Part shown: positions 17,200 through 63,510 of the stretch, piece by piece
Position numbering within the stretch: position 1 is the first letter of the stretch
Layout of the letters: each line of letters begins with the position of its first letter
Assembly (NCBI GenBank): GCA_013265495.1
Contig: MU058065.1
Span: 2,829,003-2,893,002 of the forward strand
Direction: 5' to 3'
DNA: 64,000 nt
Source of the DNA: Vicugna vicugna
Lineage: Eukaryota
Notes under the pieces: model-generated
The model's database searches: none
Told to the model about the DNA's origin: nothing
Seen by the model: only the letters and a program-made list of their open reading frames with translations
Made by a program: the position numbers and the translations under genes

Positions 17200-17386
17200 C
17201 TACTTACATTTCAAAAAATTTTATTGAATCTTATGGTGTTGATGCTACATAAAGATTAACAAGTGGATCGTTTTTCTTGCGTGAACACTGCTCTGGCTTT
17301 TGAGGGAGTGTTTCCTTTCTCTCTGTTCTGGCTTGTAGTGGAAAGAGACTTTTTCAAGATAAAGAGGGTTTCATAAAACTTTCCAT
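17200..17386 (-). pseudogene. Terminal exon-like segment with poly(A) signal
   Basis: tttcttttttttccatag| acceptor. Open frame to TAA at 17256-17258. AATAAA at 17220-17225 (minus strand). Confidence 0.55.
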
Positions 17387-17601
17387 CTATGGAAAAAAAA
17401 GAAACTTCCAAAGTGCCTTTGGAATCTACTGCTATGGAAATTAAACCGCATGTTTCAACAAAATAAATCTTTACTAACCCTTTGAACAAGAAGAAAATAT
17501 AGATACTTAAAAAAATTAAAAACAGCCCTATGAATCAGAACTTAGAATTAGAACTAGTTAAAGGTTCCCAGACCAAGTGAACACAATTAGTGTTTCCTTA
17601 C

Positions 17602-17661
17602 CTGGTTTTAAGAGGCAACTATTCCATTCTTTTTCTTATCACTCAAGGGAAACATACCCTT
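17602..17661 (-). pseudogene. Penultimate exon-like segment
   Basis: ttttctctctccttag| ... cag|gtaagg, near-consensus sites. 60 nt with stops in all three frames. Confidence 0.6.
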
Positions 17662-18345
17662 CTAAGGAGAGAGAAAAGCCCAGAGCTCCATTCTCAGTCA
17701 GATTAGGTACACTGGTGACATAAGTGGTTTCTTCTGCATCCCCAGGGAGGCACCCCATGACACAGCTGAGCACTAAAGCTGCCGAATTCATGATGGAGAT
17801 CTTGGGGTCTGGGGTCCTATCACCAGGACTGGACGACAAGGAAGGAAGCCCACACCAATGCCCCAATGTATTTGTGTAGGAAATACTTATCACCAAAATG
17901 TCACTTTTGTTTTTTTTTTCTCTCTTTTTGAACTGCAACATTTAGCCGCTCATTTCAGAGGATTTAAAAATACTTAAAAGCACAAAGAAGAAAATGCATA
18001 TGCTATATAATCCTATTCTCCAAAGACAATCACTTTTAACATGTTAGTAGTATATACTTTCAGTATTTTAATACAAAATTGAGCTCACACTGTATATATT
18101 ATTCTATAACTTTGTTCTCTTTCTCCAATGAATCTTGAACATTTTTTCACGTCATTAATTTTTCAAGAACACAGCATTGTAATTTCCTACAAGAACTTAA
18201 AGGAGCACAATTTTAGAGTAAATTTTAAAGCAACTCTTTATGGAGCTTTTTTTTTTTAAGCAACTCTCTATTTTGCTATTATAAATAATGCAAAAATGAA
18301 CACCCTTGTAGGTACAACTCATGGTACCTACATACTCATGATAAC

Positions 18346-18451
18346 TTTTTGGTTTTTTTATTATAGTATGTATTTTTTTTAAAGTATAGTCAGTTTACAA
18401 TGTTGTGCTAATTTCTGGTGTACAGCATAGTGATTCAGTTATACATACATA

Positions 18452-18486
<35 letters not shown>

Positions 18487-19330
18487 TCCTTTTCATATTC
18501 TTTTTAATTATAGGCTATTACAAGGTAATGAATATAGTTCTTTGTGCTATACAATAGAACCTTGCTGTTTATCTGTTTTATATATAGTAGTGTGTATCTG
18601 CAAATCCCAAACTCCCAATTTATCCTTCCACCCCCCCAGCCCGTTCCCCCTTGATAGCCACAAATTTGTTTTCTATGTCTGTGAGTCTGTTTCTGTTTTG
18701 TAAATAAGTTCATTTGTCTCTCTTTTTTTTTTTTAGATTCCATCTATAAGTGATATCATATGGTATTTTTCTTTTTCTTTTTGGCTTACTTCACTTAGTA
18801 CGACAATCTCCAGGCCCATCCATGTTGCTATAAATGGCATTATTTTATTCTTTTTTATGGTTGAGATATATATACACATATATCTCACAACTTCTTTATC
18901 CAATGATCTGATGGACATTTAGGTTGCTTCCATGTCTTGATTATTGTAAATAGTGCTGCTATGAACATTGGGGTGCATGTGCCTTTTCAAATCAGAGTTT
19001 CTTCCTGATATATGCCCAAGGACACAAATAAACAAATTAAGAAATGAAAGAAGAGAAATTACAACCAACATCCCAGAATACCAAAAACCGTAAGAGATTG
19101 CTATGAAAAACTATATGGCAACAAATTGAACAACTTAGAAGAAATGGACAAGTCTCTAGAAACATACAGTCCACCAAAATTGAATCAACAAGAAACATGT
19201 AATTTGAACAGACCAATCACTAGAAGTAAAATAGAATCAGTAATTTAAAAAACAAAACAAAACAAAAACTTTCTGCAAACAAAAGTCCAGGACCAGATGG
19301 CTTCCCTGGGAAATCCTACCAAACGTACAG
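18346..19330 (-). mobile_element. Artiodactyl-type L1 3' end with an inverted 5' portion (ORF2 piece on + strand, 19021-19330)
   Basis: Minus-strand 3'UTR and ORF2 tail (MPFIATWMGLEIVVLSEVSQKEK) abut plus-strand ORF2 sequence (aacttagaagaaatggacaag). Confidence 0.85.
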
Positions 19331-19523
19331 TAATAACTGTTATTTGACAAAACCACTTCCCTTTTCAGCCCCTCTATGTGGTCCTCACATCAGACGTTCC
19401 TCAGTTTCTTTGACATTTATGCCATCAGATTTTACCACATCATTGTCAGTCAAGATTCTCAGCTGCAAGCAAAGAGAATAAATTCTGGCTAATTTATGCC
19501 CAAAAGTGAATTTATATGCAGCT

Positions 19524-19565
19524 TACAGAATCCCTAGGAAGACTACAGAATCCCTAGGAAGACTA
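19524..19565 (+). repeat. 20-bp perfect tandem duplication
   Basis: tacagaatccctaggaagac x2. Confidence 0.9.
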
Positions 19566-24099: not shown

Positions 24100-24270
24100 C
24101 TGAGCACAGGTTCTTTTATTTCTAACCCCTAAACCTGGTTTTTGTCTAGAGGATTTATGGGATATCAAGAACTTGCTTTAAAATGACTAGAGAAGAGTCC
24201 TTCCATCTTGCTCTTCAGCATCCTTTTCCACAGCCCTTTCGTTCCTGCATTAAACTCAATGTTTCACACC
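24100..24270 (-). pseudogene. Pseudo-exon, PH C-terminal helix-like and start of tail
   Basis: ttttctgtgcctattag| ... cag|gtaaga, 171 nt. Reads NIEFNAGTKGLWKRMLKSKM, resembling 'F.A....K..W...L'. Confidence 0.6.
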
Positions 24271-25459
24271 CTAATAGGCACAGAAAATGAAAGAAGCATA
24301 AGAAGTCTGAAGTACTTACATTTTTAAAAAAGTCAAAAGGGAAGGAAAGGAAGAGAATTCTACAGCAATCATTCTTTCATTCACTCAACCGACATTTGAG
24401 AACCTACTCTATGTCAGGCACTGGTCTAGATGTTGATGGTGAAGAAAACTGGATTTTGACAAATGATGCCTTTTCAACTTAAATTATATAGTTCCTTCTA
24501 ACAGAAAGGGACTTCTTCTTCCCATAGTCGATAATACTCTTGTCCTACTGAGTCAACAAGACCTGAAGCTATCATAGACTTTCTACATTAGACATGCACT
24601 GAGGATTAAGAAATGAGATCCAAACATTTAATGACATTAAAATGGCTTTTGTTTTATTTCCTAAGGACAAAGACAGTTCTCATGGTGTCTAGTGTCATGT
24701 AACCCATTAACCTATTTTTACTGAATTGTTAGATATAAAATTTTAAAACACATTAATATCTTTCATAGGAATATATCTCTGAATTGATGGTATCTTACAA
24801 ATGTACATTGTGTTTCTTTCTTTCTTATGTGTTGGTACATAAAAGAAATGGTACATCTTACAACTAGTGATGACTTAGATTAAATAAAATGCTGTAATAA
24901 TGTTGGGTGATTTGCATTGCAAAAGGTCTGGCAACCCACATGCTGGTAGAGTAGATATCTTGGGGTAAGGTGAAGGAAAGTGTGCATGAGATAGCTCTCT
25001 TGGTATGATTAGTTCTGCTCTCTGCACCTGAATGTGAACATAAAGTATTTCAGCAAACTTCCTTTTCTTTCCTACTTTCTTCAGTGAAATGACGCATCTG
25101 TATGTGTCCAAGCCCTAGATCTATACTAGCACCATGACCTTGGCAAGTTCCTAAACTATATTGTGCCTCTTTTTCCTCTTATATAAATTGTGGAAACTTC
25201 TTGACAGTGCTGTATTTAAAATGAATTAAACCATGTAAAGTACTTTGAACATTTCCTGGCAGAGGAAACCAACAATAATTATTTTTTTCCTCCCTTTTCC
25301 TTTCTGGATCATATCAAGTTCTTTTCCCCTTCCCCCATCTTTTCCCCTTCCTGGGACCCTCCAAAATAGAAAAGGAGGAACCATTTCTTCTGCACCATAT
25401 AATGAGAAGGCGGGGCTCCAAAGTCAGAGAAACTGTATCCAAATATAGATTCCTTGTAG

Positions 25460-25680
25460 AGTTTCTCATCCTTGGCAATAATGACACTTAGAACTAGTTA
25501 ATTCTTTATTGTGAGGAGACTGTCTTAACACTGCAGAATTTATAGCAGCATCCCTGGCCTCTACCCACCAGATGCCAGTAGCACCCCCAGCCCAAGACGT
25601 GACAATCAGTTATGTCTCCATAATTCCCAAATGTTTCTTGGAAACAGAGTTGCTCCCTTCCCACAATGGCAACCACTGTT
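25460..25680. mobile_element. MER20-like hAT element
   Basis: agcagcatccctggcctctacccaccagatgccagtagcacc..gtgacaatc..atgtctcca. Confidence 0.8.
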
Positions 25681-25860
25681 CTGGTGTTCGCCAGGTGGTC
25701 ACTTGGGCACTTGCTCTACCTTTAAAATAGGAATGATAATGTTCCATCCACAGTTCTGAGGATGAGCCACCGTGTGGGGAAATCTATTTCTGTACTCTAA
25801 GACCCATATAAACCAAATGGAAATTCTGTTTCTCATTTTCTAACTACAAATGTAGTTTAC

Positions 25861-26080
25861 TGTGTATGTTGAGGGATAGTCGGTGCTCCCCGAAGCTGAA
25901 ATGAAGCATAGCTAAAAAGAATGATCACACTGAAGACATCCGGGAACAAGTTATTGTTCATAAGGAATGTGGATTTTCTAGCAGGTCGTATAGAGTAACC
26001 CAGTCAGTGAAGCAAACACCTTCTGAAGGCCAGGCTCAGAGTCACACCAGCTTGGGATTGTCAAGGGCAGATCTTAAAAT
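25861..26080 (-). pseudogene. Candidate pseudo-exon
   Basis: gtttatag| ... aca|gtaaac, 220 nt, CpG-retaining unique sequence. The fewest-stop frame (two TGA) is phase-consistent with both neighbouring exons. Splice sites are weak. Confidence 0.45.
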
Positions 26081-26479
26081 CTATAAACTTAAATATGCTG
26101 CCTCCAAGCTTGCAAAATAGTAATATTGAAAGACAATTACGGAACCTTTGCACATTTATACCTCTTTACATATTTAATGTACATATGTAATGTACAAAGA
26201 GGTGTGAACAGGGCTGATTTGGACAAAGTGATGGCCATCAGCCTTCTTCCATGGCTTCTTCCAGTTCCCTTCTCCCCACTGGGATGCCTCACCCCTGTGT
26301 CTGGAACCCAGTGTCCCTGCCCACCCTGACTCGGAAGCCCTCTCTCTCCACACTTCATCACAGCACTTCCTTGCAGTAATTCTATTAGATCAACTTGCAG
26401 CCTCAAAAGGATCTGATGAGAACTCACTAAGTTACACTCTTCCTTCCTCAATTAGTACATTCCTTTTTAAATTACACTA

Positions 26480-26975
26480 TGTTTTATATACACACACACA
26501 AACACACACACACATATGTACATACATGTATATATACATTACTCAGCCATAAAAAAAGAATGAAATAATGCCATTTGCAGCAACATGGACGGACTTAGAC
26601 ATTATCATACTAAGTGAAGTAATTCAGACAGACAAATATCATATATCTTATATGTGGAATCTTAAAAATGACACAAATGAACTTATTTATAAAACAGAAA
26701 AAGACTCAAAGACATAAAAAACAAAAATATGGTTACCAAAGTAGAAAGGAGGGAGGGATAAATTAGGAGTTTGGGACTAGCAGATACAAAGTACTATATA
26801 CAGAATAGATAAACAACAAAATCCTACCGTATAGCACACAGAAACTATATTAAATAGCTTGTAATAACCTATAATGAAAAGAATCTGAAAAAGAATATAT
26901 ATATATATATGTATGTATAACTGAATCATTATGCTATGTAAATTGACTATACTTCAATTTAAAAAATAAAATAAA
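26480..26975 (+). mobile_element. Artiodactyl-type L1 3' end
   Basis: ctcagccataaaaaaagaatgaaataatgccatttgcagcaacatgg; A-tail; TSD-like aaattacac on both sides. Confidence 0.85.
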
Positions 26976-27566
26976 ATTACACCATTTTCTAACCAACCGA
27001 AGAAAGCTTTTCATATATAATTTGTTCCATAGTGGAAAGAAAATCACTCCGAAAATCAAAAGACCTGGATTTACCAATATTTTTTTTCTGGTCTTGTGTA
27101 TGGAATGCTGAAAAAGCAGAGACACTCTGTAAAGGCTCTTCTGGTTCATTAACTAAGAAAAAGTTCTGAACTTCCTCCTGAAAGGACTAGACCGTTACCA
27201 GATCAATAATTAGTTCTTATGTCTGAATTCACACACACATATAATGTGGCAACTCCTTTTTAAATGACAACATTTTTTTTTAATCCAGTAATGTTGTCTG
27301 ATTAAAGCAGTGGAACTTCAACAAACCTAAGTCTTCTAGACCAAATGGCTGAAAGGATGAATATTTCCAGTCTTTCTCTGAATGTTATTGACATCAGGAC
27401 AACTTCTGACTTCATATGTATTACTGCTCATTGGACACATTCACCAAGCACTCAACTCTGTCACAGACATGGAGCTAATTGTTTCAAATGTATTGTCTCA
27501 TCTAATTCCCTTTTAACTCTAAATGCCCCTGACTGGCATCCTTTACAAAGAAGCTATTGTACTTAC

Positions 27567-27781
27567 ATTTGTATCTAAATTTTAGAGTTTTCTTTTGCCC
27601 TGACATTACTTTTATCAAATCATTCATTTATTGCACTATATGAAGACAAAGAGTAGGTAATTTGATGAATGCTGATTAGTTTTTAAAACCTTTGATCATA
27701 TCGTCCTATAAATTTTTCTCTGCTGACGTTTTGTAAGTTACGGCCTTTCTAAATATCACAATTACCATATACTGCTTTTTA
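27567..27781 (-). pseudogene. Pseudo-exon, probable PH-like region (unit C)
   Basis: aaatttcag| ... aat|gtaagt, 215 nt. Stops in all frames. Contains NYLLFVFI*CNK, which weakly resembles PH 'YLFLF....CK'. Confidence 0.55.
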
Positions 27782-27878
27782 CTGAAATTTGTTTGGAAAA
27801 AAGAAGAGGAATTTAACAGGATATATTTTTACTGGAATTAGAAAATAAAAGAGTGAGGTTTAAATCTGACTTTGTCAC

Positions 27879-27971
27879 TTTTCTTTAAATGCTTTTGCTC
27901 CAAGAGGTTTAAAATTTGACAACCTATCAATGTCATAAGATAATAAAGGAGTAATGTATCCCCAGACCAGT
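27879..27971 (-). pseudogene. Pseudo-exon
   Basis: Very strong polypyrimidine tract, cctttaag|, donor |gtgaca. 93 nt with two open frames. Flanked by 92- and 97-nt introns. Confidence 0.55.
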
Positions 27972-28063
27972 CTTAAAGGAAATGAAAGTGGAAAAGAACA
28001 GATGAGGAAAAGCAAAAAGAAGGCTTCCGACCCCACACAAAAATATCCATCATTCCTTCTCAC

Positions 28064-28288
28064 ATAGCCGGTGGGGGATTAAATTCCCCCATTAAAATGC
28101 AATTTCCAAATGAGAGTAACAACATATTTATCCACTTTAAGACCCTTCTATAATTTCCCATTTCTAAAATCTGAATGTATTTTACAATCAGTGTCATTGT
28201 GTACATTTAACTTAGTAGTAGTTCTTTTGCCCCCTCAAAAAAGAGCAAGGTCAATCGACACCTTCAGGATAGTTTATAAAAGCAGGTC
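28064..28288 (-). pseudogene. Pseudo-exon, DH unit C C-terminal part (frameshifted)
   Basis: ttttccattcacag| ... tat|gtgaga. DH-like pieces fall in three different frames: PAFINYPEGVD; LLLS*MYTMTLIVKYIQILE; IHSDFRNGKL*KGLKVDKYVVTLI. Confidence 0.55.
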
Positions 28289-29164: not shown

Positions 29165-29414
29165 CTGTGAATACATCCGACAGTGTGGCTCATTCTTGGG
29201 AGAAGACAATTGCAAAAGCCTAGAACTTCAGCAAAACTTGGAGATACCCCAACATAAGAGCTTTGTATATTCAATATGTAAGGAAGGGTGGGTGGAGAAA
29301 GCCCGACTTTCCTTCTGTCCAAGTGACTACTCTGGGAGAGGAGTCTGGAGATGACAAACTTTCAGATGATGGAGGAAAAGCTTGTGCAGGCTGAAGTCGA
29401 AGGGCTACAGAGAG
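29165..29414 (-). pseudogene. Pseudo-exon, N-terminus of DH unit C
   Basis: tgtctgcag| ... cag|gttgga, 250 nt. The best frame has a single stop: ...SSII*KFVISRLLSQSSHLDRRK...YILNIQSSYVGVSPSFAEVL...SHTVGCIH. Confidence 0.6.
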
Positions 29415-32120: not shown

Positions 32121-32661
32121 AAGCAGCCACAGGGAATGACTACAAGGCTGTGGAGTTTAGATTTAGGAATTCTGGGTTTTTCCCACTCTGAATTATATGA
32201 CCCACAGCAAGATGTTTCACTTACCTGTAACCTTCATTATACACATGAGGAACTGAGGTACAGGAGATGCTCCAAGGAAATTTCAGCTCTAGTATTTCAG
32301 TTTCTAGACCTTCTGGTACAGTGAGGAGATGGACATCTCAAGGGTAGTTCCTTGTACTCAGCAAATTTTGCCAGGCTATGTTTCTGAGTCATCATAATTA
32401 TCATCATCGTTTCCTATTTCATATAGCACAATGGTGTTTCTGACACACTAGTAGTCAGACATGCACTTGGAGCTGACTTTTCCAACAGTGCATAAAAGAT
32501 TTGCATGAATTCAGCCATGTTCTTAGCCACCATTCACTTGTGAATAAATGCAAAGAGTTGAGAAATGATCTTGTGATAAAAATAAACTTGAGAAAATGTG
32601 CATATTATCTTCTGTTTCTTAGTATTCATATAGTAAAAGTTCTAAAAAATACTAAAGAAAC

Positions 32662-32855
32662 ACATAAAATAGATAAACAAGGAACTACTGCAAAGCACAA
32701 GGAACTATACTGAATACCTTGTAATAGCCTATAATGAAAAAAGAATATGAAAAGGAATATATATATATATATATAAAACTGGATCCTTATACTGTACACC
32801 AGAAATCAACACAACCTTGTAAATCAACTATACTTCAATTAAAAAAAAAGAAAAG
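32662..32855 (+). mobile_element. Short 5'-truncated L1 3' end
   Basis: aaaatagataaacaagg...actatacttcaattaaaa; TSD-like aaagaaac. Confidence 0.8.
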
Positions 32856-34842: not shown

Positions 34843-34964
34843 TCTTAGAAAAAGTGTCAATCTGCTTCACATTCAACTCTGTGCTTCTTTTTATTTTCTG
34901 ATATTATCATTAATTCCAACCAGAATCCCTCGAACAACTTGAAGCTCAGATGTAGCAATAGGAT
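34843..34964 (-). pseudogene. Pseudo-exon, PH C-terminal-like (unit B)
   Basis: ttttatttccattttaag|. Reads YPIATSELQVVRGILVGINDNIRK in frame with the previous exon. Donor uncertain (gtgaag 34870 or gtaaaa 34842). Confidence 0.5.
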
Positions 34965-35909: not shown

Positions 35910-35944
<35 letters not shown>

Positions 35945-35945
35945 A
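35645..35945 (+). mobile_element. Camelid-type L1 3' end with (TAAA)n tail
   Basis: gggtgggaagggataaattgggagtttgagatttgcagatac ... (aaat)n. Confidence 0.85.
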
Positions 35946-46700: not shown

Positions 46701-47500
46701 TTAATCTGCTATTAAATCCATCCATTGAATTATTAATTGATGTTTTGTATTTTTTGATTCTAAGACTTTTGGGTCTGTTTTGTGTGTGTGTGTTTCAGTT
46801 TCCTGTTCTCTGCCAAGATTATTGTTTATATCCTTGACATATTAAAAAGTCTGTGTATGTCCACTATCTGGATACCCTGTGGGTCATTTTCTACTGTCTA
46901 TTGTTTCCTGTGGTTTGGGACGACATTTTAATTTCTGTTTATATGAATGGTTATTTTTACTTGCATAGTTGATGTTATGTATGAAAAATTGAAGAGATAA
47001 TTTGAGGCTGTAGATGTTATCATCCACCAGAGATCACCCGCCAGAGTTTATTATTAGCAATTCCCAATCACCTTCATCTAACCATAGATGAGGATGATGT
47101 GAAACACTCTACTGCAGCCACTATGAGAACTGGTTTATGTCCAGCTCATTCTTATTCTCAACATACATCCTTTAAAGTCCCAACAAAACTTTGGTAATTT
47201 ATTAAGGCTTTTTCCCCTTGGCAGGCCCTGGCCTCCAATTTTTGCCTCTTATTCTTTTGAATATTTCAAAAGTTATTCTCAGCTTCCCAATTTTTCTGTC
47301 ATCATCTTAAATATTGAAATTGTCAGGTACCTTTAGGTTAAAAAAAAAAAAGTTCCTTGTCTCACCTCTCTGAGGTTTCTTACTTTCTCAAATTTTGGCT
47401 CTTCACTTTCTTGAAGGGTCTCCTATTTAAAAATATATATATATTGTTCTACTTGTCTGCTTATTCTTATCAAGAAGTTTTTTCCTGAACTACTAATCTG
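43734..47500 (-). mobile_element. Old L1M element (continues left of the young insertion at ~40230-40398)
   Basis: T-rich degenerate reverse-complement ORF2/3' motifs (gtagtattccat, tttggagagaattggcatttt, aaatgctttttctg). Confidence 0.8.
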
Positions 47501-49533
47501 GACCTTATGGAAGCCAAGAGCTTGTTTGCAAATACAAACTTAACATTTTATTTAAATATACGTGTCCAATCCACCATTGTTTAAAAATATGTCCTCAGTT
47601 ACCTCAATGATTCATTAGACCTTAAACTCTTTTCTTAATATTAGTAAGGCATGGAGCCTTGGGGTAAGTGTTGGGCATTCTACAGATGCATTTGATAACA
47701 TTATGGCTATGAAGCCTCCTGTTTGGACTATTGCATAGGTAGCATGGCAAGACATAATTACAAAATAAAACAATACATGTATATATTATTTATTTGTTTA
47801 TATATTCTTCATCTATGTTTTCCTACAAGGATAGAACATGTACTTTGTCTACCCTGTTTACCACTCTATCTCCAACACCCTTTAGGTATACAATAAATAT
47901 TTGTTTAATTAATAAATTTAAAAATAGAAAACCTATGTGTCTTCAATAATGTTACATAGCCAACCATTAAGGATAGTCTTTTTAAGACATGTATTAATAA
48001 TGCTTTCTATGAGGCATCAAAGACCCGAGATAGCCCTCAATGGGATATATAGCTGTTGCTACCTGGTAGCAAATTACCTATGGTAAAGGAGACAAACCAA
48101 CCCCAAATTTCTGTTCTCACCCACTGCGTTATTTCCAACTCTCTTCATATCTGAACTGGATTATTGCAATATTCTCCAATTAATTCATCTCTATACCTAC
48201 AGTCTTCTTTCTCTCCAAATCTATCTACCAGACTTCTGCCAAGTCCATTTCCTATTACACAGATAGGATCAAGTCACTGTTTTTGGAACCTGAAAGCAAC
48301 AGGAATATCCTTTAAATCCTTAGCATGGCACTCAGGGCCCTCAGAAATTGGTAGGAATGTGGCTGATGGAAAGAATTTGATGTATATTTGTTGAATGACT
48401 AGCTTCAACTTCCCTTCCTAATCTCTCCGACTCCACCCAAGTTCCATCATAGCAAGAAAACTCATTCTTCCTAAACATTCATGCATTTTCACATCTGTTT
48501 TTGTTGTTCATATCCAGAAAGTCCTAATCCAGCATTTCCACCAACTCAGTCTTCAAGGCTACATTATATGGTCTGCCAATTCATCCACAGTTCCCCAGTA
48601 GAAATTAACCATTGCTTTACTATTTAAATTCTCTTCGGACTTTTAAACTAACCCATGTTATTATATCACATCTTATGTTAACTTTATTTCTCCATTTTAT
48701 TTCCAAGCTATTTCAGAATTTTTACGTTAGAATTGCTAGAGTATTTATAATTTATTTATCCATTCCTTATGTTGTTAACTCCCTGTATATACTCATGATA
48801 GGCACTTAATGAGTGGTTATTGAATAAATAAATCAAAGGAAGGTCCACACAGCTGTTCTCAAACTGATTCAGGCAGTGGAGCCCTTGAAAATTATACTAT
48901 TCTTTGCTAAACATTATAAAATATTGTTTAAAAAGTTTTAAATGAAAAATATACACCATTATGATAAATTGAAATTAGCAGCTTGAAAGCCTTGAGTAAA
49001 AGAAACAAAAACAATTAAAGAGGAAAAATTAGAAAAGCAAATGTTAATGGAGAAATTTTTCCCCAGTGATTTCATCTTTCTCTGGTCAGGAAGTGGCTCT
49101 CATTATAGTGTTAGGATTAGGACACCCAGGTTTCGTGTTCCTGGACTGAGAGTCACGGGTCCCACCTATATGATTTTTGTGATTGCTGCCATTCTGAAGT
49201 GAGGGAAAATGTTGGTAAGTTGAGAAAATTAGCATCCACACCAACCTACAAGATAAATAAATCTCATGGAATGATTACCCTTTCAAAAGAGTTGGTACTT
49301 TTTTTTTACTGGCCTTTAGGCTTCAAGCGCTTTAATGCTACTACATATCACCATAAACAACCTACCAAATCATAGCAGATCAACATAGGCAACTAAAGGT
49401 CTTTGAAAACTGATGAATTTAACATTTTTCTTAAATCAGTCTTAACTCTGAAGACACAAGTCAGGCAGAAAGTGGTCCTGGCATAGACCAGAGAAGCACA
49501 AATACTGCAGAGCTGTTTCAAACACCAGCTCAC

Positions 49534-49710
49534 CGTCACTTTGACAACTGTAAAGATGGCTTCCAGAAATAGCCAGTTCAGTTGGGCCTCACAGGAACGA
49601 GGGCTTCATAGTGTCATGTCAAACAACTGCCTCAGAATCCACTCCTCTTTTCTAGGGTCTTTCCTTCAGAATGTACTGTGAGGATTGGTCCAAACTCACA
49701 GCCAAGAGGG
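49534..49710 (-). pseudogene. Pseudo-exon, middle of DH unit B
   Basis: ccctgtag| ... acg|gtgagc, 177 nt. Reads PSWL*VWTNPHSTF*RKDPRKEEWILRQLFDMTL*...LEAIFTVVKVT, resembling 'H..FL..L.....EEW......D.F'. All three stops are TGA. Confidence 0.5.
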
Positions 49711-51040
49711 CTACAGGGCCACACATATGTTGGGCATTTAGTTGGAGGCAGGACCTCAGGAATGAACAAACTTAAAGCTGGAATTAATTTTAGAGACTAT
49801 CCTGTCAGCTCTATCAGATGCATCTAATTCAACCTCTATTTGAATAGTCCCAGTAAGAAGGACATCATTGGTTTAACAATTCTTAAGAACTTTAAATAGT
49901 AAGATATTATCTAATATTAACTATTAGATTAATATTAGATATATTAATATAACAGTCCACATTAACTTCCTGGTCTCTGCTTTTATGCTGGTTGTCCCAT
50001 CAGTCTCTCTTTCTGATGACTGTCTGGTGGTGTGACTCATCCGTCTCAGTCTGGTTCAGTGCCTGATTTATTAGCAATCACTTACTAAATGTTACTGAAT
50101 GAATGAATAGACAAATACATGAATTTCAAAGACCTTTTTTCTCTTGGATAATTAGTGTATTTCCCCATCAAAGCCCTTAGCTGTCATCCATCTGGGCATG
50201 AAGCAAGGTAGGAACTTTAATTTTCCAAACATAGACCCATGAGGGCAGGAATCTTTGTCTATTTTGTTCACTGATGCATCTCAAATGTCTTGAATGGTGC
50301 CAGACATTTTAGGTATTCAACAAATACTTTACATAGATAAATAACAAAATACCATTTTTCCCCATGCCCTTTCTTTTTTTGTTAATAACACAATATACCA
50401 AATCTCTCCACACTTTGCAGAGAGTTTAATCTAAAATTGATGTTATTTAGTTCCTTCCAAAATCTCACTGAGATAATTTATTTTTAAAGGCTGAAGGACA
50501 CACTAACCATTTATTTCTCCTCTGGAGTTGCTTAGTTCTCTCCCAGTATAAATTGAACAGCAGAAAGCTAGTACTAGACTACATTATTTTTACACCCCGT
50601 ATAAATGTCTTCTCAGAAAAAGAATCAGCATAATACCATCTGCTTCTAAGTAAATTTAGAATATGAAATGGTCATAGGAAAAATGTGTTTAAAATTTGTG
50701 CAAAGTTGCCATTGAAGTGATTTTCCAATTAAGTTGTTAATTGGAAACCCACAAAATAAATTTCTCTTAATATGCTAAAATTTTTTTGACTTGCCTAGAA
50801 AATGGCATGCTTCATTTATCAGACAATAAAAGTCATATATGCCATTGTGTTTTGTTTTGTGGCTTATTTCTTATTTCACTGAGGAAAGAGATGGTTTCAG
50901 ATAAGAATGACAGCCTTCGACCACCAAATCTAGCCATCCATTGCATCAGCACCCTCATTCTTGGCCCTTCTTCCTGTTAAAGGTATGAACCAATTCCTTT
51001 CTTTAAGACACTCACTTCCTTTACCTTGAAAACCACCCTC

Positions 51041-51665
51041 TTTTTTAAAAAAAATTAATTGAAGTGTAGGTAATTTACAGTGTTAGTTTCAGGTGTACAG
51101 CAAAGTGATGCAATTATGTATATACATATTTTTTTTTCTTTTCAGATTATTTTCCATCATATGCTATTATAAGAAATTGAATATAGTTATCTGTACTGGA
51201 CAGTAGGTCCTTGTTGTTTATCTATTCTATATATAGTAATGTGTGCCTGTTAATCCCCAACCCCTAATTTATCCATCCCCACCCCTTCCCCTCTGATAAT
51301 CATAGTTTGTTTTCTGTGTCTGTGAGTCTCTTTGTGGTTTGTAGGTGGAATTTATATCATTTTTTTAGATGCCACATATAATTGACATCACATGATACGT
51401 GTCTTTCTGTCTGACTTACTTCACTTAATATGATAGTCTCTAGGTCCATCCATGTAGCTGCAAATGGCATTATTTCATTCCTTTTATGGCTGAGTAGTAT
51501 TCCATTGCATACATATGGTATGGAGACATATATATATATATACACACACATACCACATCTTCTTTATTCAGTTATCTATTGATGAACATTTAGGTTGTTT
51601 CCATGTCTTGGCTATTGTAAATAGTGCTGCTATGAACATTGGGGTACATGTGTCTTTTTTTTTTT
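51041..51665 (-). mobile_element. Artiodactyl-type L1 3' end
   Basis: Peptide MPFAATWMDLETIILSEVSQTE; TSD-like gaaaaccac(c/a)ct on both sides. Confidence 0.85.
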
Positions 51666-52219
51666 GAAAACCACACTGTTGTCTACTCAAAGACTTTATG
51701 TCTGTCATTATTACCTTTCTCTTATGCATCACCAATGATTCCCTCTTTACTGGTTATTTCCATACCCAGGAAAACAAGCTGAAATATCTCCTATGTTAAA
51801 GAGAAAAAAATATATATATATATATGTTAAACCTTCACTGTTCTCCTTCAGTCCTGCTCCATATCTCTGATCTCCATTCTCCAAGTCCTTAAACAGTTGT
51901 CTACACTTGACATTTTTTTAACCTTATTTTCTCTCCTTAACCTTCTTCAATCAGACTTTTATCCCAATTGCTCCTCATCATCATATCCAATGGATCTCTC
52001 TAGACCTCTCAGCAGCATATACGTATCTGATATCCTTTTTTTTTGAAACAAGCTAGTCCTTTGACCTTAGGGAGGCTACTGTCTCTTGATGTGTTCCTGT
52101 ATCTTTGACCATTCCTTCTCCATTTCCTCTTTTGGATTTTCTTTCTTTCTCAGCTGCAAATGTTGAAGAGCCCCTAAACTTGTCCCCTGTCTTCTTTATC
52201 CCCCATTTACATGATCTTC

Positions 52220-53630: not shown

Positions 53631-53735
53631 CAGCACTGATTTTGCACATTCCAAAGAATCACTGCCTTACACCCACATAAGCAGAGTCAGAAAACAAGAG
53701 CTCCTGAATGATAAATGCCCTATCTGAATTGCTAT
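53631..53735 (-). pseudogene. Pseudo-exon, N-terminus of DH unit B
   Basis: attctgcag| ... ctg|gtaagt. Reads DSNSDRAFIIQELLFSDSAYVGVRQ*, the closest match in the window to the DH helix-1 consensus R..IIQELL.(T/S)E..YV. Confidence 0.7.
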
Positions 53736-54833
53736 CTGCAGAATATATCAACCACCCAAGCACAAAATAATAAATCTTAAGATTTTTCCAGAGGTCAGAA
53801 TGAGGGGAACATGAATTTAAGAGTGTTTTTTTTTTTTTGCTACTTTGAATTTCTCAAAACTGCTATAAATTATCTAAGTCTCATATAATTAATAGGCTTT
53901 CTCAGAGTTTATAAGCTTTCAACATGGTCTTTTCAGCTCCTATTAAAGAAGGGTTAACAAATAAATTAAACATCTTTAAAACTGTGGTAGCTTAAGGGTG
54001 TTTCTTGTGTTTCCATAGATTCTTAAAGGGCAATAATAGCTGACTAAAAATACTCAACAGGAATTTTTGTTTTAGAGACTTGACCAATATTATAGGGAGC
54101 AAATTCTGACAATAGTTTTACTGCAAAGAATGAGAGATTTAAGTGAGTATGTTGAGTTAGGGCTACACTTGTGATGCTTGCCCCCAACCCCATGCCAAGT
54201 TCTATACTATAGGTTGGTGGTGGTGTCTGTGGTGGTGGTGGTGGTGGTGTTTTATTGTTGTCGTTGCTGTTCCTGTTGTGTTGTCATTGTTGCTGTTTTG
54301 TCACAGCTCTGTAATTTTTGAAATTGGCTCTGGGAATAGTTGCCACTAAGTCTAGAGACACAACAATTGATGGGAAAAATACTTTAAGGAGTAAGTATAA
54401 TCACTTCATTCAAATGGCCTAAAAAGCGACCAGTAACTTTTGGCCCATCGAAAATATTCACACAAGAGATCCTAGGAGACAAGGGAAAATCTATCTTTTA
54501 ATAATATCAGAGAAGTATGTAAAATGTTTATGTAGAAAGTCCTAAGATTTTGACAGGGGAAAATAAGAAGACCCTTGCGTAAATGGTTTTGTTTGGAAAT
54601 CCAGAGGTGCCAGGGATGGAAAGATATAGATGGAATGCTAGGAGTTCTCTTATTAGTACTACTGTACTTTCCAGCTAATGTTGTATGTTCACCTGAAGGA
54701 TTTATATTTATGTTGAATATCAGTATAAACCAAATCAGTTTTTCTCTTGGCAACCCAGATGCGAAGCGTTTTCTCTACCAAGAGCCCCCAGGAAGTCTAA
54801 ATTCATTGAATTACAGATATGTTCTTCCTTCAC

Positions 54834-54922
54834 CTGCTTTGTCCTTCAGACTGAGCAAGACCCAATCAGTCCTCTAGTCCACTTGGTGTTCAGGTGTAGT
54901 GAAGGAGAAACTGGCCAGTGAT
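54834..54922 (-). pseudogene. Pseudo-exon, PH C-terminal helix-like (unit A)
   Basis: Reads SFSFTTPEHQVD*RTDWVLLSLKDKA, with Trp at the PH helix position. Donor cag|gtgaag; phase 1 fits the next exon. Acceptor weak. Confidence 0.45.
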
Positions 54923-55184
54923 CTGTGCTTACAGTTCAAATAATTACTGAATTGAAAGCTAAGTTACATCCTCACTCATTGTCCACCAAAGCAGATGACT
55001 TAGAGCTGTGCAGATGATCCTCGAGTGGCTAGCCACGCTGGGCTTGGTGGGTTCATTTAAGGCACTGACTGTTCAGGGAACGTTTATAAAATCCAGAGAT
55101 CTACTTATCTGTCGTTTGCCCAGAATCTCATTGCACCTGACATTTCAGTAGATTTAAAAGCCTTGAGGGAGACCGAATGCTTAC

Positions 55185-55257
55185 ACTAGCTGATATTTAC
55201 TTTTAAAAAGTCATAGCTGTGTTCATGCTCTCTTATTGCTGCACGCTGGATAACAGC
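55185..55257 (-). pseudogene. Pseudo-exon, PH-like N-terminal part (unit A)
   Basis: Long polypyrimidine tract, then cataag|; donor |gtaagc. Reads AVIQRAAIREHEHSYDFLKVNIS*, in frame with the preceding exon. Confidence 0.5.
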
Positions 55258-55809
55258 CTTATGAAAAGCAGTGAAATCAGATAAAAAAAAAATACAACAC
55301 TTAGTCAGTGTTGTGTCAGGGACCCAGCAGCCCAGCAGCCCAGAGCTGCCAAAACACATCTGCTTTGTTTTGTGACACATGGTGGGGCCGAAGGGAGACA
55401 CCAATTTTCGGGTTCATCTTCTGGGGTTAGAGCCAAGTCCATACAGCTCTGAGCATGGCCATAACCACCTAGGATGAGTCGAGGGCCACATACAGGAAGC
55501 TTACTTCTTCAGGCTCTGGAATCAAATGACCTGAGCTTTGGATCCTGGCTCCAATACTCATCGATCTGTGACCCTGGAAAAGTGGCTTAACCTCTCTAAA
55601 CCTCCATTCTTTTCATTCAAAGGAATTCAATGCTTACCTTAGAATTATTATGAAAGCTACATAAGAAAATATGTGTGCAAAGAAACACTCAAAAATGTTT
55701 ATCATTATTAAAAATGATAAAATTAAATAAAAATGAATATAAACTTTTAATGCAAATTTTGTCTACCAGGCTTTTAGCAATAATTAAGGAAAGCTAGAGG
55801 TCATCTTAC

Positions 55810-56095
55810 AAGACCTAAACTCTATGTCCATTAACCAGCAATTCCCCATCTTCTACCCCCTCAGCTCCTGGCAACCACCATTCTACTTCCTGCCTCTATA
55901 AGTTTAACTACTTTAGATACTTCATGTAAGTAGAATCATATGGTACTTGCCTTTTTGCAACTGGCTCATTTCAACTAGCATAAAGTCTTCCGGATTTACC
56001 CATACTGTAGCATATGACAGTATTTCCCTCTTTTTTAAGGCAAAATAATATTCCATTATATGTATATGCCACTTTTTCTTTATCCATTTATCTGT
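55810..56095 (-). mobile_element. L1MB-type 3' fragment
   Basis: cctggcaaccaccattctacttcctgcctctata..gtaagtagaatcatatgg. Confidence 0.75.
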
Positions 56096-56954
56096 TGAAA
56101 GAATAAAAGTCCCGTGTTAGAGGGAGTGAATTTCTTTAAATGGAAGTCACTGAGGTTTTTGCTCAATACATGGATTTTCTTATTGTTGATGATGATCATT
56201 TCATAAGCTAAAGTTCTGTAATGTTGAGGAGGACCAAAGTGATAAGAAAATGCCTCTCTGAGGATGTGGCATTCAAGTTGAGACTTGCATGAAGAAACGG
56301 GAGCCACACTATCTAGGGGAAGAGTACTCCAAGTGCAAAAAGTCTGAGATGACGGTGAGGTATTTGGTGTCAGAAAGTAGGTGCGTGCCTGCAGCAGCAG
56401 CCGAAAGAGACCTCGCTGTGCCCACATGGTCCTGGATTGTCTGACCCCCTTCACCCTCTGACCTCATCACTTGCTACTCTGCCCTGCATCCTCCACGCAG
56501 CCGCTCTCACGTCCTTACAGCCCTTCTATTACTTTTGGTGTGCTTCAGCCTTAGGACCATTCTGTGGGCTCTTCTTTCTTTCTGGAATGCTCTTCTGTTC
56601 ATATTTGCCTGTCCAACTCCCTCTTTCCTTCAAGTTTTTGTTCAAATTTCACCTGACTTCCCTGCTTGAAACTGTATCACACACTGTCTCCCACCAGCTC
56701 ACCTCCACACCCCTTACTTTTTCCTTTCCACTTATCTCCTAATGCACGATTTGACTTGCATATAGTTACTGCTTATCCTCTTCCTCCAACAGAGGATAAG
56801 TTCCTTGAGAGAAGACTTTCGTTTTGTTCACTGATGTATCCCAAGTATCCAGGACTTTCCCAGGCAAATAGTAGCTGCTCAAATACATATTTTTTGAAAG
56901 ATATAGCAGAAGAGAAGGAAAGAAAGATTCCTCTTCCCAATGCTATTTTCTTAC

Positions 56955-57079
56955 CATGGAACTAGTGTATACGTTTTCGCCCTGCAGCACCACATCTGCC
57001 TCCAATCCCTGGAGTCTGCTTTGTATTTTAGAACCTATGTCCTGAATATTAGACTTGACTATAATTACAATAGATTGCC
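56955..57079 (-). pseudogene. Pseudo-exon, DH-PH linker of unit A
   Basis: cctcttctcag| ... atg|gtaaga. Open frame NIQDIGSKIQSRLQGLEADVVLQGENVYTSSM, resembling 'IQ.RL.G.E.DLV..GR'. Phase-0 exit matches the next exon. The 5' boundary is uncertain. Confidence 0.6.
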
Positions 57080-58387
57080 CTGAGAAGAGGCCAAATCCCA
57101 TTGTAACCACTTTCAGGGACTGTCCCACTTATTTCATTGCCCTAGAATTGTAATATGCAGAATGCTACTGGGGGGAAAAAAGTAGGTCATTGGTTTAGAA
57201 TTGGAAATACTTTAGTTGTTGGTGTTATTAAGCTGGGATGTTTTGTTGTGATAATACTGATTGTGAGAGAACTTAAACTATTTTTCTTGCCTTTAAATTT
57301 TTCTTTTGGGGTAGCTATTCTTAGCACAGATGCTAGTGTCTGTCAAAATGTATACAAAACCTGAACACTGAAGTTCTGAGTTTAAATACAGGCTGTAGCT
57401 GTATTCATTGCTTCTCATAGCTCCATGTGGCTTATCTCTTTGACTTTTCTAACATACAGGATATGTATTTCCTAGAGGAACAGGCCATTTTCTATCTGCC
57501 TATCACATCAATGGGGTAGGGCAAATCAGAAGGGTAGATACTTCATTACTGTAAGATTTAACACTAAGATCAGTCTTGATAACATTTTACCCAAAATTCC
57601 CTGAGGAAGCCAGGAAGAAAATTCTACAGATTTTTTTTTTATGTGTGTTGAGGTTGGGGCAAGGGTTAGCATAAAATACATTTATAAAAGCTTACTGCTG
57701 TGTATATGTTGATCGTCAGGGCTAATCCAGAAAATAGATTCTCATGATCCTTAAGAACTAGAATAAAATGTCAGCACACAGCACACATTCTCCAGATTGG
57801 AAATATCTGTGTTGTCCAAGTTCTCACTTTGTCCCATAATCAAAGGGGCAGCTCCTGAAACACTGGGGTCTTTCAAAAGCATACCAGGCTTTTTTGAAAT
57901 AATAATGCAAGGTGTCCTGAATTTAGGATGTCCTAAGTATTTTTGACTCTTTGAGGGTGTAGGGCTAATTTTCCATCATTGTTGGCCCCAATTATTTTGA
58001 TCTATAGATCAACTCAATTTAAAAATAACAAGTTTTGTTTAAAATAGACCATAAATTATTATTTTGCATACTTTTAAGAAAGAAAAACTATTTGCTAACT
58101 GAGCTATGACCAATATTTTCTCATTATTGAGGATATTTATACTTGTATAATTATTTATCATATATCATTCTTATGCACATATTTGTATATAGGTGAAATA
58201 AATATAAGCAAGGTAAATTAAGATATTTCTAAACTGTCTTTTCATTCAGATTTCAATCTTTTGAATAAATTTTCAACTTAGAGCATTGGTGACAAACACT
58301 CTCAAGGAGTTCACTACTATTTCTGGATTTCCTGCTATTCTGACGTCTATTCCAAGAGCTTTGTTATTGGTACTTTCTTCATCTTAC

Positions 58388-58526
58388 CAAGTTGTCAACT
58401 AAAAGTTTTTAGACAACTAAAACTCAGGTCCTCTGTCAAACAGTCTAGACATAATTTGTCGACGGCAGCCCCGAGGGACTACCATTGTTTTTACACCCTA
58501 CTAGGCATTATAACCCCTTTGCTCAT
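58388..58526 (-). pseudogene. Pseudo-exon, DH unit A conserved region 3-like
   Basis: ttttcactacctgcag| ... ttg|gtaaga. Reads GLPSTNYV*TV*QR, then after a shift PEF*L, resembling DH 'GL.L.SYL..PVQRIP.Y.L'. Retains several CpGs. Confidence 0.55.
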
Positions 58527-59604
58527 CTGCAGGTAGTGAAAACTGTATCTTTTGATTGACAGCAATCGTAAAAGACTATCATTGAATGCATCCTGTATTC
58601 AAAGATGTTGAAATGTTAAAAAAAAAAAGAAGTGTGTATTTGAATGAATGAAATACAGTAATTCTTCTATCATTCTGTAGTTCCTAACCACTTAAATGGC
58701 AAGATGGGAATAAAAGATCCTGAAAAGAATCAACATTCTAGGAAATATTTCTTGACTTTTAAAAATTTAAGTAAATTTGGCATGGCCATAAACACCCAAG
58801 CTTATACTTTGTTGTATACAAATTCAATACTAATGCTTTGGAATTTGATTTCTCAAAATTGCAGGTCTCAAAGCACTTGCATTCATTTTCTGAACTTCAG
58901 TGTTGATGAAAACTACAAAAATGAAGAAGCAATAAAAGAGCTTATAAATCCTTACCAAATAATGACAAGTCATAGCCTATTAAGTTTCCGTTAACCAAAT
59001 CACCTCCAGCACACCAGTAACAATGAATTTCAATTTCAGCTCAAATTTCTTAGTATTTAGTCACCTCAAATCCACTTTAGAAGTAGGTGGGAATAAATTT
59101 TAAATAATTTAAAAGGCTTCTATCACATTTCTTCGTAACATTCTTTGGAAATTTAAGATTACATTTTGTATTACTAAAATCCAGCCTGCTTTTCTATTAA
59201 ATGTGATCAGTTTTAGGAAATAAGTACTAACATTTTTATCACAATTCTTGATCTTGACTGAATTGGCAAATGGAATTTGGAGGCAAGGGACATATTATTC
59301 ATGTGGAAAATTTTCCTTGAGACCTAAAATGTTGTACCATTTATTGGAGTTCTTGGAAACAAATGGCAAATATTTACCAGTCCATGATTTTTAGTAGCCT
59401 GCCTTCCCCAAAGGAATAGGCAGGTGGTAAATAAAGCAAAAGCCATATTCCTTTCCACTCAGCCTGGCACAAAATGTACTGCTATTTAGACGAGCAATAA
59501 TATTTGAGTATTTCCTCACTCCAACTTGTAAATTATGAACAGTACCAAGTAGCAAACAAAATCACAGTGCTGCGTGGGATTAAAGCTGCTTGTCCTCAAC
59601 TCAC

Positions 59605-59731
59605 TACAGGTACCTTATATTCTCTTGTTAATCCTTCCACACCCTCTCTGTGTGTGAAGAATGGTTTTGTTTGTTGTTGTTTTTCATCGGGTGTGTCAAT
59701 GAGCCATCTTACTATGTCATTAACCAAACAG
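59605..59731 (-). pseudogene. Candidate pseudo-exon, middle of DH unit A
   Basis: attccttag| acceptor with an upstream pyrimidine-rich tract and a |gtgagt donor. Open frame CLVNDIVRWL...REYKVPV. Domain resemblance is weak. Confidence 0.45.
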
Positions 59732-61039: not shown

Positions 61040-61245
61040 AGCTCATAGTTAGTAAATGTTTACTACATTCTAGGAAATTTAAGTAGATGATTTTATTTTC
61101 ACAACCCTATGAGATAGGTATTATTGACACCATTTTATAAATGGAGAACCTGAAGTACAGAAGTGAAATAACTTACTCTAGTGCAGAGCCAGGATTCAAA
61201 CCCAAGCCTGTCTACTACCAAAGTCCATGTTCTTATCCACTGCTG
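61040..61245 (-). mobile_element. MIR SINE
   Basis: cacaaccctatgagataggtattattgacaccattttataaatggagaacctga..gagccaggattcaaaccca. Confidence 0.75.
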
Positions 61246-61669
61246 CTGTGGTCCCAGTGACAAAAATAATGGAAGTAAGAAGAGGGATGTACCCCACCTT
61301 CACTTCCAGTTCCTTTACCAAAATCAGACTAGGTCTCTCTTAGCTAAAACCAAGAGATGAATAATAGTAGCAGTCAGGTCTAGTCCTGTCACCCTAAACA
61401 ACATAGAGATTAATTCTAGGAACTGTTAAAACTGAAGAGAAACCAGATGAAGATTGTGATGATATGTTACTACAAAGGCTAAAAAAGATGAGAAGACCTG
61501 TTGTTCATAACAGTTTTCATAAACCTGCCAAATATTCTAAGTGAGGCACTGAACCTCTGTATATGATCTCCATATTTGTCAGTAAAAGCCACAGGATTTT
61601 AAAATTAATGTCATCTTTTTTCTAAGCTTTGAATTATTAAACAACAATTTATTGACTGCATATTGTGGT

Positions 61670-61890
61670 TCACACAGTGGTTAAGAGCCTTGGCTTTACA
61701 ATTCAGCTTTGCCACTTTCCATCCGAGTGGCCTGTTGTGCCTTAGTTAGCCACTCTGAACCTCAGTTTTCTCATCTAGAATGAGTATTCAATCCAACGTT
61801 ATCAGGATTGTTGTGTGGATTAAAGAAATGATTTATATAAAGCAGTGGGCACATAATCTGCATTCAGTAAATGTTACTATTACTATTAGT
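61670..61890 (+). mobile_element. MIR SINE
   Basis: cagtggttaagagc..ctctgaacctcagttttctcatct..ggattgttgtgtggattaa. Confidence 0.75.
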
Positions 61891-62054
61891 CATTGCATAC
61901 TCATGTATAAAATGTCACAGAGTGATGCAAGAAAGTATTAAAGGAAGTCCTTTCCATCAAGGGATCTATAATTTATTTGAGACCTACAGACACATCAGTG
62001 TGCAAACTATATGAGACAACTTATAAGGAAGTGCTAAGCAGTGTAAGTACTGTG

Positions 62055-62220
62055 GACCAGCACTTGTCAGACTTTAATGTGCACACTGATCCCCAGGGGG
62101 TCTTGTTAAAAGGCAGTTGCTGATTCAGCAGGTCTGAAGTGGAGCCTGAGGGTCTGCATTTCTAACAAGCTCTCTTGTGATGCTCCTTGTTAATAGTTCA
62201 TGGACCACACTTTGAATAGT
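62055..62220. mobile_element. MER5A hAT element
   Basis: tcttgttaaaa..gctgattcagcaggtctgaagtggagcctgagggtctgcatttctaacaagctc..ggaccacactttga. Confidence 0.85.
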
Positions 62221-62993
62221 GATGCTGTCATGTTTAGAGGTGGGAGAGGGCTGCTCAGTAAGGGCTGGAGCAGTAGCTTTGGAAGAGGGATGGAAATGAG
62301 CTAGGGCTTGAAAGACAAATGGGACATGGACACCTTAAAAAGAGATAGGTGAGCTCCTAGGCACAGGAATGCCATGGTGGGAAGGCAGGAAGATAAGTGG
62401 AACAATAAGGAAACAGTCAGTTGGTTGACAAAGTCTCTACTCCTGTCCCCTCTATGGGGTGTAGCATGGCAGTGTCTTCCATCTTAGGCAGTAGCTCTCA
62501 GTGCTCACTAGGTACCAGAACCAGAATTCTGGGCCGCCTACAGAATACAGATAGCTGAGCCCCACCCACAGAGATTCTGAAATATCTGGCCTGACTTAAT
62601 CAAACTTCAGGAGTTCATATTCCAAATATGGAGGAAAAAATAGTGCACATAACCAAGAAGTAACCACACATCACAAAAATCAGCAGTGCTGCTACTTTGC
62701 AAGTACCATCAATAGCTCAGAATCTCTTAAGTAGTTAATGAGTTCTGAGCTATGGGGAAATTGAGGCAAATTGTATCTTGTGATTTACCCTTGTCTGCAT
62801 GGCCCATTAGTGCTACATAAATAACTTTGGGAAGATTTATTAATGCCAAATTTATGATTTTTGATTTCTAATCATCTATGCTTCTGTAGATGCTAGGTTA
62901 ATTATTATTTAATACATTCTTTCAGTAACTTTCAGGAGTTTTTACTACACCATTCAATATTAATTTTTTTTTAATTCTTAAATATAGGATCAC

Positions 62994-63224
62994 CATTTTT
63001 CCTTTGCTAGTCTGGAAGGATGTCAACTCTTTCCACAATTTCTCAGAAATACTGGCTTGTTGCTCCATAGTTCTTGGAAAAATCCAGGAAACGGGTCACA
63101 AGACCCTGCTGATTTGAATGCCCCAGGTTTTCCAGATACTCTGAAAGGAGTTCATTCCTTCTTATAATTTATTATTCCTTCAAAACCAAATCAGTCCCCA
63201 AACAATAATTCATCTTTGATCTTT
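62994..63224 (-). pseudogene. Pseudo-exon, N-terminus of DH unit A
   Basis: tttatcctctacag| ... atg|gtgatc, 231 nt. Frame 0 reads KDQR*IIVWGLIWF*RN...WIFPRTMEQQASISEKLWKELT, resembling DH 'R..II.EL..SE..Y' and 'IF.NIE.I...H..FL.EL'. Confidence 0.6.
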
Positions 63225-63332
63225 CTGTAGAGGATAAATTAAAGAAGATGTTAAGTGTGCCTACCTTTAAATCACCTTCTATAATTAGATTTCCCTTCCT
63301 CAATGTGAGAGATGTAAATTTTATATAATTAC

Positions 63333-63510
63333 TCTCTTCTATTTAATAATTTAAATAACTTTGTGTGTCTTTAATGTCCCCTACAAAATGATCTCCTGTT
63401 TAGCTGAAGCTCTCCTAAAATAGCACAATTTCCATGACCCATGAAAGACACTGAATACATATTTCCCAATACATTTTCTTGCATAATGTTTCTTGCTAGT
63501 CTTTTTAGTT
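63333..63510 (-). pseudogene. Pseudo-exon, PH-domain C-terminal-like segment
   Basis: Acceptor ctcattcatcttgcag| at 63511. One frame reads KYVFSVFHGSWKLCYFRRASAKQEIIL*, resembling the PH last strands and helix; the TAG may be a former TGG. Donor ambiguous (gtaggg 63384 or gtaatt 63332). Confidence 0.45.

What the first reader, a model, noticed from the sequence alone, without database searches (positions are those of the whole stretch)
17200..63510. Hidden fossil gene: a decayed RhoGEF with at least three tandem DH-PH cassettes
Seen in sequence: about 25 AG/GT-bounded segments lie in unique sequence, all on the minus strand, ending in an AATAAA-bearing terminal exon. Three separate exons carry DH helix-1-like motifs (62994-63224, 53631-53735, 29165-29414). 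Each is followed in the right order by central DH-like, CR3-like, linker-like and PH-like motifs. Established: Dbl-family GEFs use a DH domain followed by a PH domain; most have one cassette, and TRIO and KALRN have two. Inference: this is the remnant of a gene with three or more cassettes that matches no mammalian RhoGEF I recognise. It may be an ancestral vertebrate gene lost in this lineage or more widely. The ORF track misses it because exons are short and full of stops.
Basis: partly seen in the sequence, partly recalled or inferred. Interest (0 to 1): 0.88.

Follow-up and report, generated by a model that had tools for sequence, protein, structure and literature searches.

The report
Unproven fossil RhoGEF beside KCNE4
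This single-copy stretch between the KCNE4-like and SCG2-like genes of a mammal encodes no intact protein, and its proposed remains of a three-domain Rho activator gene are more likely chance resemblances in neutral DNA than a real dead gene, though a very old dead gene is not excluded.

Summary
The region lies in the ~410-kb gap between KCNE4-like and granin (SCG2-like) genes of a 2.0-Gb mammal genome. AG/GT-bounded minus-strand segments exist at the quoted places but are no denser than on the plus strand or in the flanks (34 vs 36). Only one of the three named helix-1 motifs (53715) scores as one, and about one such match is expected per 46 kb. No Pfam RhoGEF/PH hit and no intact homologue were found. 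With a decay-aware DH-PH profile, my hand-picked first cassette (63224-54405) aligns collinearly at nominal p 0.007-0.09; cassettes 2 and 3 mostly do not. An unbiased spliced search leaves all three at background, while planted, decayed RhoGEF genes were detected in 27/32, 16/32 and 9/32 runs at 0.15, 0.25 and 0.35 substitutions per site. Verdict: chance pattern in neutral DNA ~0.5; very old multi-cassette unitary pseudogene ~0.33. One look at this interval in marsupial, bird or frog genomes decides it.

The parts
62994..63224 (-).
   Evidence: single copy; an orthologous-looking ORF of another animal, P0002, is as similar over the upstream intron part (19/27) as over the segment (25 identical columns of 36-38)
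58515..59731 (-). Three hand-picked candidate segments (59731-59613, 58912-58808, 58592-58515); proposed central DH and CR3 of cassette 1; profile placement shifts between runs
   Evidence: region single copy
54405..57757 (-). Four hand-picked segments (57757/57749-57696, 57079-56955, 55257-55201, 54471-54405) that repeatedly align, across three junctions with one frameshift, to DH end, linker and first PH strands (profile 161-240); the best evidence for a dead gene
   Evidence: not recovered by the unbiased spliced search
53631..53735 (-).
32225..51790 (-). Eight hand-picked segments proposed as the rest of cassette 2; no stable alignment
40400..47400 (.). LINE-1-derived block (pieces in both orientations) inside proposed cassette 2; limits approximate
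   Evidence: sequence, ORF2-like frames; repeat class recalled, not tested against a library
29165..29414 (-).
24173..28288 (-). Six hand-picked segments proposed as the rest of cassette 3; global alignment p 0.06-0.32
17208..17661 (-). Two 3' segments (17661-17602; 17386-17208 with AATAAA at 17225, followed by a GT donor)

Best explanation
This is most likely neutral intergenic DNA in the gap between KCNE4-like and SCG2-like genes, in which AG/GT-bounded pseudo-exons and short DH-like words would arise by chance; it encodes no intact protein. Mechanism: AT-rich mammalian DNA offers about 9 strong-looking splice pairs per 10 kb on either strand (shown) and about one helix-1-grade word per 46 kb (shown). 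A reader free to choose segments, frames and frameshifts can thread them in DH-PH order (inferred). Whatever its origin, the first segment evolves no more slowly than its intron in another animal (shown for one segment), so it is probably not under coding constraint (inferred).
For: No splice-pair excess. 2 of 3 named CR1 motifs at chance level; the third is matched or beaten in summed motif + splice score by several other places among the CR1 hits listed in 464 kb. 0 of 37 segment-frame peptides (18 of the 26 segments) hit RhoGEF/PH in Pfam at E<=10. None of 149 PF00621 or 61 PF22697 genome hits lies on this contig. No convincing similarity between cassettes among 1950 comparisons (best p 0.001, uncorrected). 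No reading-frame excess over the reverse complement. Unbiased global spliced alignment: 18, 13 and 39 of 64 background windows score as high as cassettes 1-3, while planted decayed genes passed the 95% line in 27/32, 16/32 and 9/32 runs at d = 0.15, 0.25, 0.35. None of 37 living paralogue sequences fits all three cassettes.
Against: Hand-picked cassette 1 beats profile permutations (p 0.007-0.09), GC-matched chains (p 0.004-0.008) and segment-order shuffles (p 0.015-0.28), and the same DH-end/linker/PH stretch recurs. In the global test the true order scored above the shuffle mean in 8 of 8 rows. Cassette 2 reached p 0.02-0.04 in one relaxed setting, though with an alignment unlike the others. 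Each hand-picked cassette totals 815-844 nt, near a DH-PH unit. The tests lose most of their power at d>=0.3. The minus strand outscored the plus strand in 5 of 6 cassette rows.
Confidence: 0.5

Rival explanations
1. A very old unitary pseudogene of a Dbl-family gene with several tandem DH-PH cassettes, lost at or before the placental radiation. In the ancestor each DH would have loaded GTP on a Rho GTPase, with PH aiding membrane targeting (inferred from family knowledge); today it is disabled by stops, frameshifts and a LINE-1 block.
For: Nominal collinear signal for cassette 1 and weak positive trends for cassettes 2 and 3. One clear helix-1-like word beside a strong donor. By eye, two phase-compatible junctions (51715|49753 and 29165|28288) fall where many living Dbl genes have an intron (profile 85-87); this is post hoc. 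Single copy. Precedent for loss of a Dbl GEF in placentals: GEF64C (PMC5499878, passages).
Against: Selection by eye inflates the p-values. The unbiased search is at background for all three cassettes; if cassettes were independent, planted controls would all score that low about 2% of the time at d=0.25 and 12% at d=0.35. No internal repeat similarity. No homologue in 1.84 billion representatives for segment 1. The vertebrate survey counts 72 members and names only TRIO and Kalirin as two-DH proteins among the 71 human ones (PMC5499878).
Confidence: 0.33
2. A dead gene with only one DH-PH unit (cassette 1, 63224-54405, perhaps with the 53735 segment), for example the lost GEF64C-type gene; the other 'cassettes' are chance.
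For: Only cassette 1 gives repeatable nominal significance. Vertebrate GEF64C is reported lost in placentals; tetrapod and fish entries are mostly 1019-1253 aa (supplement rows).
Against: Cassette 1 is also at background in the unbiased search. The location and domain layout of vertebrate GEF64C were not seen, so nothing ties it to this locus.
Confidence: 0.11
3. Remnants of a different dead gene, or exons of a spliced non-coding RNA downstream of KCNE4 on the same strand; the DH likeness is incidental.
For: Several strong splice sites (e.g. 17661-17602, 53735-53631, 57079-56955); same strand as KCNE4.
Against: No excess of splice pairs; no Pfam family of any kind at E<0.1 for 37 peptides.
Confidence: 0.06

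Closest known systems
TRIO and KALRN (two tandem DH domains)
   Same: The only multi-DH proteins among the 71 human Dbl members in PMC5499878 (passage); the proposal is a repeated DH-PH architecture.
   Different: They are intact genes with two units and many other domains (recalled). Here three units are proposed, none is shown, and no frame is open.
Vertebrate GEF64C (Dbl GEF lost in placentals)
   Same: Known precedent for a RhoGEF present in marsupials, sauropsids, amphibians and fish but absent from placentals (PMC5499878 passages and Table S1/S2 rows).
   Different: No sequence or map position of it was available; fly GEF64C has one DH-PH unit (recalled); no link to the KCNE4-SCG2 interval is shown.
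FGD / FARP / ARHGEF39 / ARHGEF9 DH-PH units
   Same: The hand-picked 57757-54405 stretch aligns to the DH end, linker and first PH strands of a profile built from about 40 such genes.
   Different: No single family fits all three cassettes (best summed z 5.7 among 37 sequences tried). The ECT2L likeness I saw by eye was rejected.
Unitary pseudogenes of placental mammals
   Same: Single copy, multi-segment, disabled, in a conserved gene gap.
   Different: The defining intact orthologue at the syntenic place has not been found.

Membership tests
Dbl-family RhoGEF (DH-PH) | DH domain detectable by PF00621 | tested here: not met
   0 of 37 peptides; no hit on this contig among 149 genome hits at E<=10; low power for decayed short segments
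Dbl-family RhoGEF (DH-PH) | Conserved region 1 (helix 1) in each cassette | tested here: inconclusive
   1 of 3 scores (11.3 bits; ~0.9 expected per 46 kb); other two P 0.45-0.93
Dbl-family RhoGEF (DH-PH) | Conserved region 3 in each cassette | tested here: not met
   ungapped CR3 scores at chance in 2 of 3; the third (P 0.02-0.05) is post hoc and not at the by-eye place; a motif split by an intron would be missed
Dbl-family RhoGEF (DH-PH) | PH domain directly after DH, collinear | tested here: inconclusive
   nominal p 0.007-0.09 for hand-picked cassette 1; background in unbiased search; no PF22697 hit on the contig
Dbl-family RhoGEF (DH-PH) | Open reading frame able to make the protein | tested here: not met
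   21 stops or shifts on the cheapest path through 26 segments
Dbl-family RhoGEF (DH-PH) | Nucleotide exchange on a Rho GTPase | not testable with these tools
   needs an intact orthologue and a biochemical assay
Multi-cassette DH-PH gene (three or more) | Three units similar to each other or each to the family profile | tested here: not met
   no convincing pair among 1950 comparisons; cassettes 2 and 3 p 0.06-0.39 in the global test
Unitary pseudogene | No functional copy elsewhere in the genome | tested here: met
   57600-59800 and segment 1 match only themselves; only these two stretches were searched
Unitary pseudogene | Intact orthologue at the syntenic place in an outgroup | not testable with these tools
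   no vertebrate genome besides the own one is held; protein searches with segment 1 found none
Unitary pseudogene | Exon-intron structure above chance | tested here: not met
   34 minus vs 36 plus splice pairs; decay would also erode this

The most novel reading that the evidence does not exclude
The KCNE4-SCG2 gap of placental mammals holds the fossil of a vertebrate RhoGEF with three or more tandem DH-PH units, an architecture missing from the published 72-member vertebrate set, still alive in non-placental vertebrates and lost near the placental stem.
Probability: 0.33. Interest if true: 0.7.

Novelty: not a real feature. Interest (0 to 1): 0.3.

Why it matters
If the fossil reading holds, it adds a 73rd vertebrate Dbl-family gene with an architecture not described in the papers searched and a second RhoGEF loss in placentals beside GEF64C, and points to an unstudied protein in birds, reptiles or marsupials that might switch on several Rho GTPases at once. 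If it does not, the case shows how readily splice-like segments and domain-like words can be threaded through neutral mammalian DNA.

Tried and rejected
Homologue searches, all with segment 1: word search of longer proteins (136-2000 aa only), none of 43 candidates; full HMMER scan of 1.84 billion representatives, 1 hit, P0002, an unnamed 63-aa assembly ORF; near-length search with P0001+P0002, only P0002 among 3 candidates. A generic DH search returned ARHGEF9/4, SPATA13, FGD and FARP proteins; the top multi-hit entries I inspected (P0003-P0008) were near-identical internal duplications, not real multi-DH proteins. ESM Atlas: nothing usable for P0002 or segment 57079-56955; no evidence either way. 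PDB: chance coiled-coil hits or nothing. Metagenome locus L072: a 23-nt chance match in unrelated DNA. A plus-strand helix-1-like hit 40 kb beyond the window is LINE-1 ORF2-like sequence. ECT2L likeness seen by eye: rejected. Early spliced alignments with loose penalties drifted and were discarded; protein-level tests with a small profile were null and underpowered. Literature: searches found no description of a RhoGEF or pseudogene in this interval or of a three-DH RhoGEF. Supplements of PMC6886504 (9 files searched, 2 not), PMC10195156 and PMC10416458 name none, but unnamed LOC entries could not be screened. 'arhgef49' appears once without context.
Full report
Setting. The window is G000:C1347:2829003-2893002 of a 2.03-Gb mammal genome, 36% GC and CpG-poor. 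Reading 200 kb on each side found a minus-strand ORF with the ISK channel domain ~84 kb beyond the window end (KCNE4 by my recall of the sequence), an AMP-binding exon further on (ACSL3 by position) and a plus-strand granin gene ~261 kb before the window start (SCG2 by position). A cattle table lists the same neighbours and no gene in the QTL region between them (PMC4831767, passages). The two stretches searched are single copy.

Observation. Such segments are not enriched: 34 minus vs 36 plus at one threshold, 65 vs 56 and 19 vs 17 at two others, within the range of 8 flanking windows, whereas the two windows beyond KCNE4 show clear minus-strand excess (generic splice weights from memory, rough repeat mask). 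Against a 305-column DH-PH profile built from 51 sequences of about 40 genes, only the word at 53715 scores as helix 1; about 0.9 such matches are expected per 46-kb strand, and the other two named segments are at chance level. Adding splice scores does not make 53715 unique in 464 kb. AATAAA occurs 67 times on this strand of the locus. The joined segments need 21 stops or shifts, their reverse complement 20.

Family and homologue searches. Pfam gave no RhoGEF or PH hit for 37 peptides from 18 of 26 segments; genome-wide PF00621 and PF22697 searches list nothing on this contig. Segment 1 found one relative among 1.84 billion representatives, an unnamed 63-aa assembly ORF. It is 19/27 identical over the intron part and about as identical over the segment, which fits neutral orthologous DNA of another mammal, dead or never coding. 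All protein searches used segment 1 only, and the word searches did not cover proteins over 2000 aa.

Collinearity, hand-picked. I scored codons under a neutral decay model with CpG hypermutability. Cassette 1 (8 segments, 844 nt) aligned over profile 5-240 and beat profile-block permutations (p 0.007-0.09 over settings), segment-order shuffles (p 0.015-0.28) and random or GC-matched chains (p 0.003-0.08). The stable part is 57757-54405, mapping to the DH end, linker and first PH strands across three junctions with one frameshift; the upstream segments move between runs. With full composition correction the signal falls to p 0.08-0.19. Cassette 2 was null and p 0.02-0.04; cassette 3 was never below p 0.06. 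These p-values are nominal: segments were chosen with the hypothesis in mind and several settings were tried.

Collinearity, unbiased. A spliced, frameshift-aware aligner recovered the intact ECT2L gene without its own sequences in the profile. On the locus it found nothing above background in local mode (one window tied the background maximum through a 6-residue word outside the picked segments) or global mode, where 18, 13 and 39 of 64 background windows scored as high. Four living RhoGEF genes absent from the profile, planted with similar intron lengths and decayed, passed the 95% line in 27/32, 16/32 and 9/32 runs at 0.15, 0.25 and 0.35 substitutions per site, and scored as low as the locus in 2/32, 9/32 and 16/32. 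Three ordinary cassettes decayed by 0.25 or less are therefore unlikely; an older loss or a more divergent DH is not excluded. The cassettes show no convincing similarity to each other, and none of 37 paralogue sequences fits all three; ECT2L, my by-eye favourite, ranked near the bottom.

How it works. Shown: no intact protein is encoded. Inferred, best reading (0.5): neutral DNA with chance pseudo-exons. Rival (0.33): a multi-cassette Dbl-family gene dead since about the placental stem, whose units would each have catalysed GDP/GTP exchange on Rho GTPases (family knowledge). Lesser rivals: a single-unit fossil (0.11), another dead gene or spliced non-coding RNA (0.06). Expression is untested.

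Known comparison. PMC5499878 (passages and supplement rows) counts 71 human members with 73 DH domains, two each in TRIO and Kalirin, and a 72nd vertebrate member, GEF64C, lost in placentals. That survey started from human members, so it could have missed a gene absent from humans (inference). Eight literature searches (listings and abstract starts only, except the papers named) and supplement searches of PMC6886504, PMC10195156 and PMC10416458 (two files of the first not searched) gave no RhoGEF in this interval. Unnamed LOC genes in those tables or in annotation databases could still be the orthologue.

Verdict. Observation partly confirmed, interpretation undecided and leaning negative. I file it as not a real feature on present evidence, with a one-in-three chance of a new RhoGEF architecture that one synteny look-up would settle. 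Interest 0.30.

Noticed in passing
L009:4291-4971 (minus), ~84 kb beyond the window end: Intact single-exon KCNE-family ORF (PF02060) next to the only CpG island called in 464 kb; same strand as the proposed fossil.
   Followed up: yes
window 51434, 18804 (minus), 21262, 26604 (plus): A LINE-1 ORF2-derived word mimics DH helix 1 (10-12 bits) and recurs in the flanks; a trap for motif reading.
   Followed up: yes
window ~30400-30900 and ~16600-16950: LTR-like fragments by sequence appearance (recalled); not dated or classified.
   Followed up: no
L001 ~5270-5660 and ~7570-7960: Inverted duplication of unique-looking DNA 5-8 kb beyond the window, visible; already noted by the scan (e1-8089780).
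   Followed up: partly
window 63510-63990: Long pyrimidine/purine simple repeat that creates false ORFs and a false strong acceptor at 63510, the finding's upper limit.
   Followed up: yes
P0003-P0008: Several database RhoGEF entries carry near-identical internal DH duplications, probably annotation or assembly artefacts, which mimic multi-DH proteins.
   Followed up: partly
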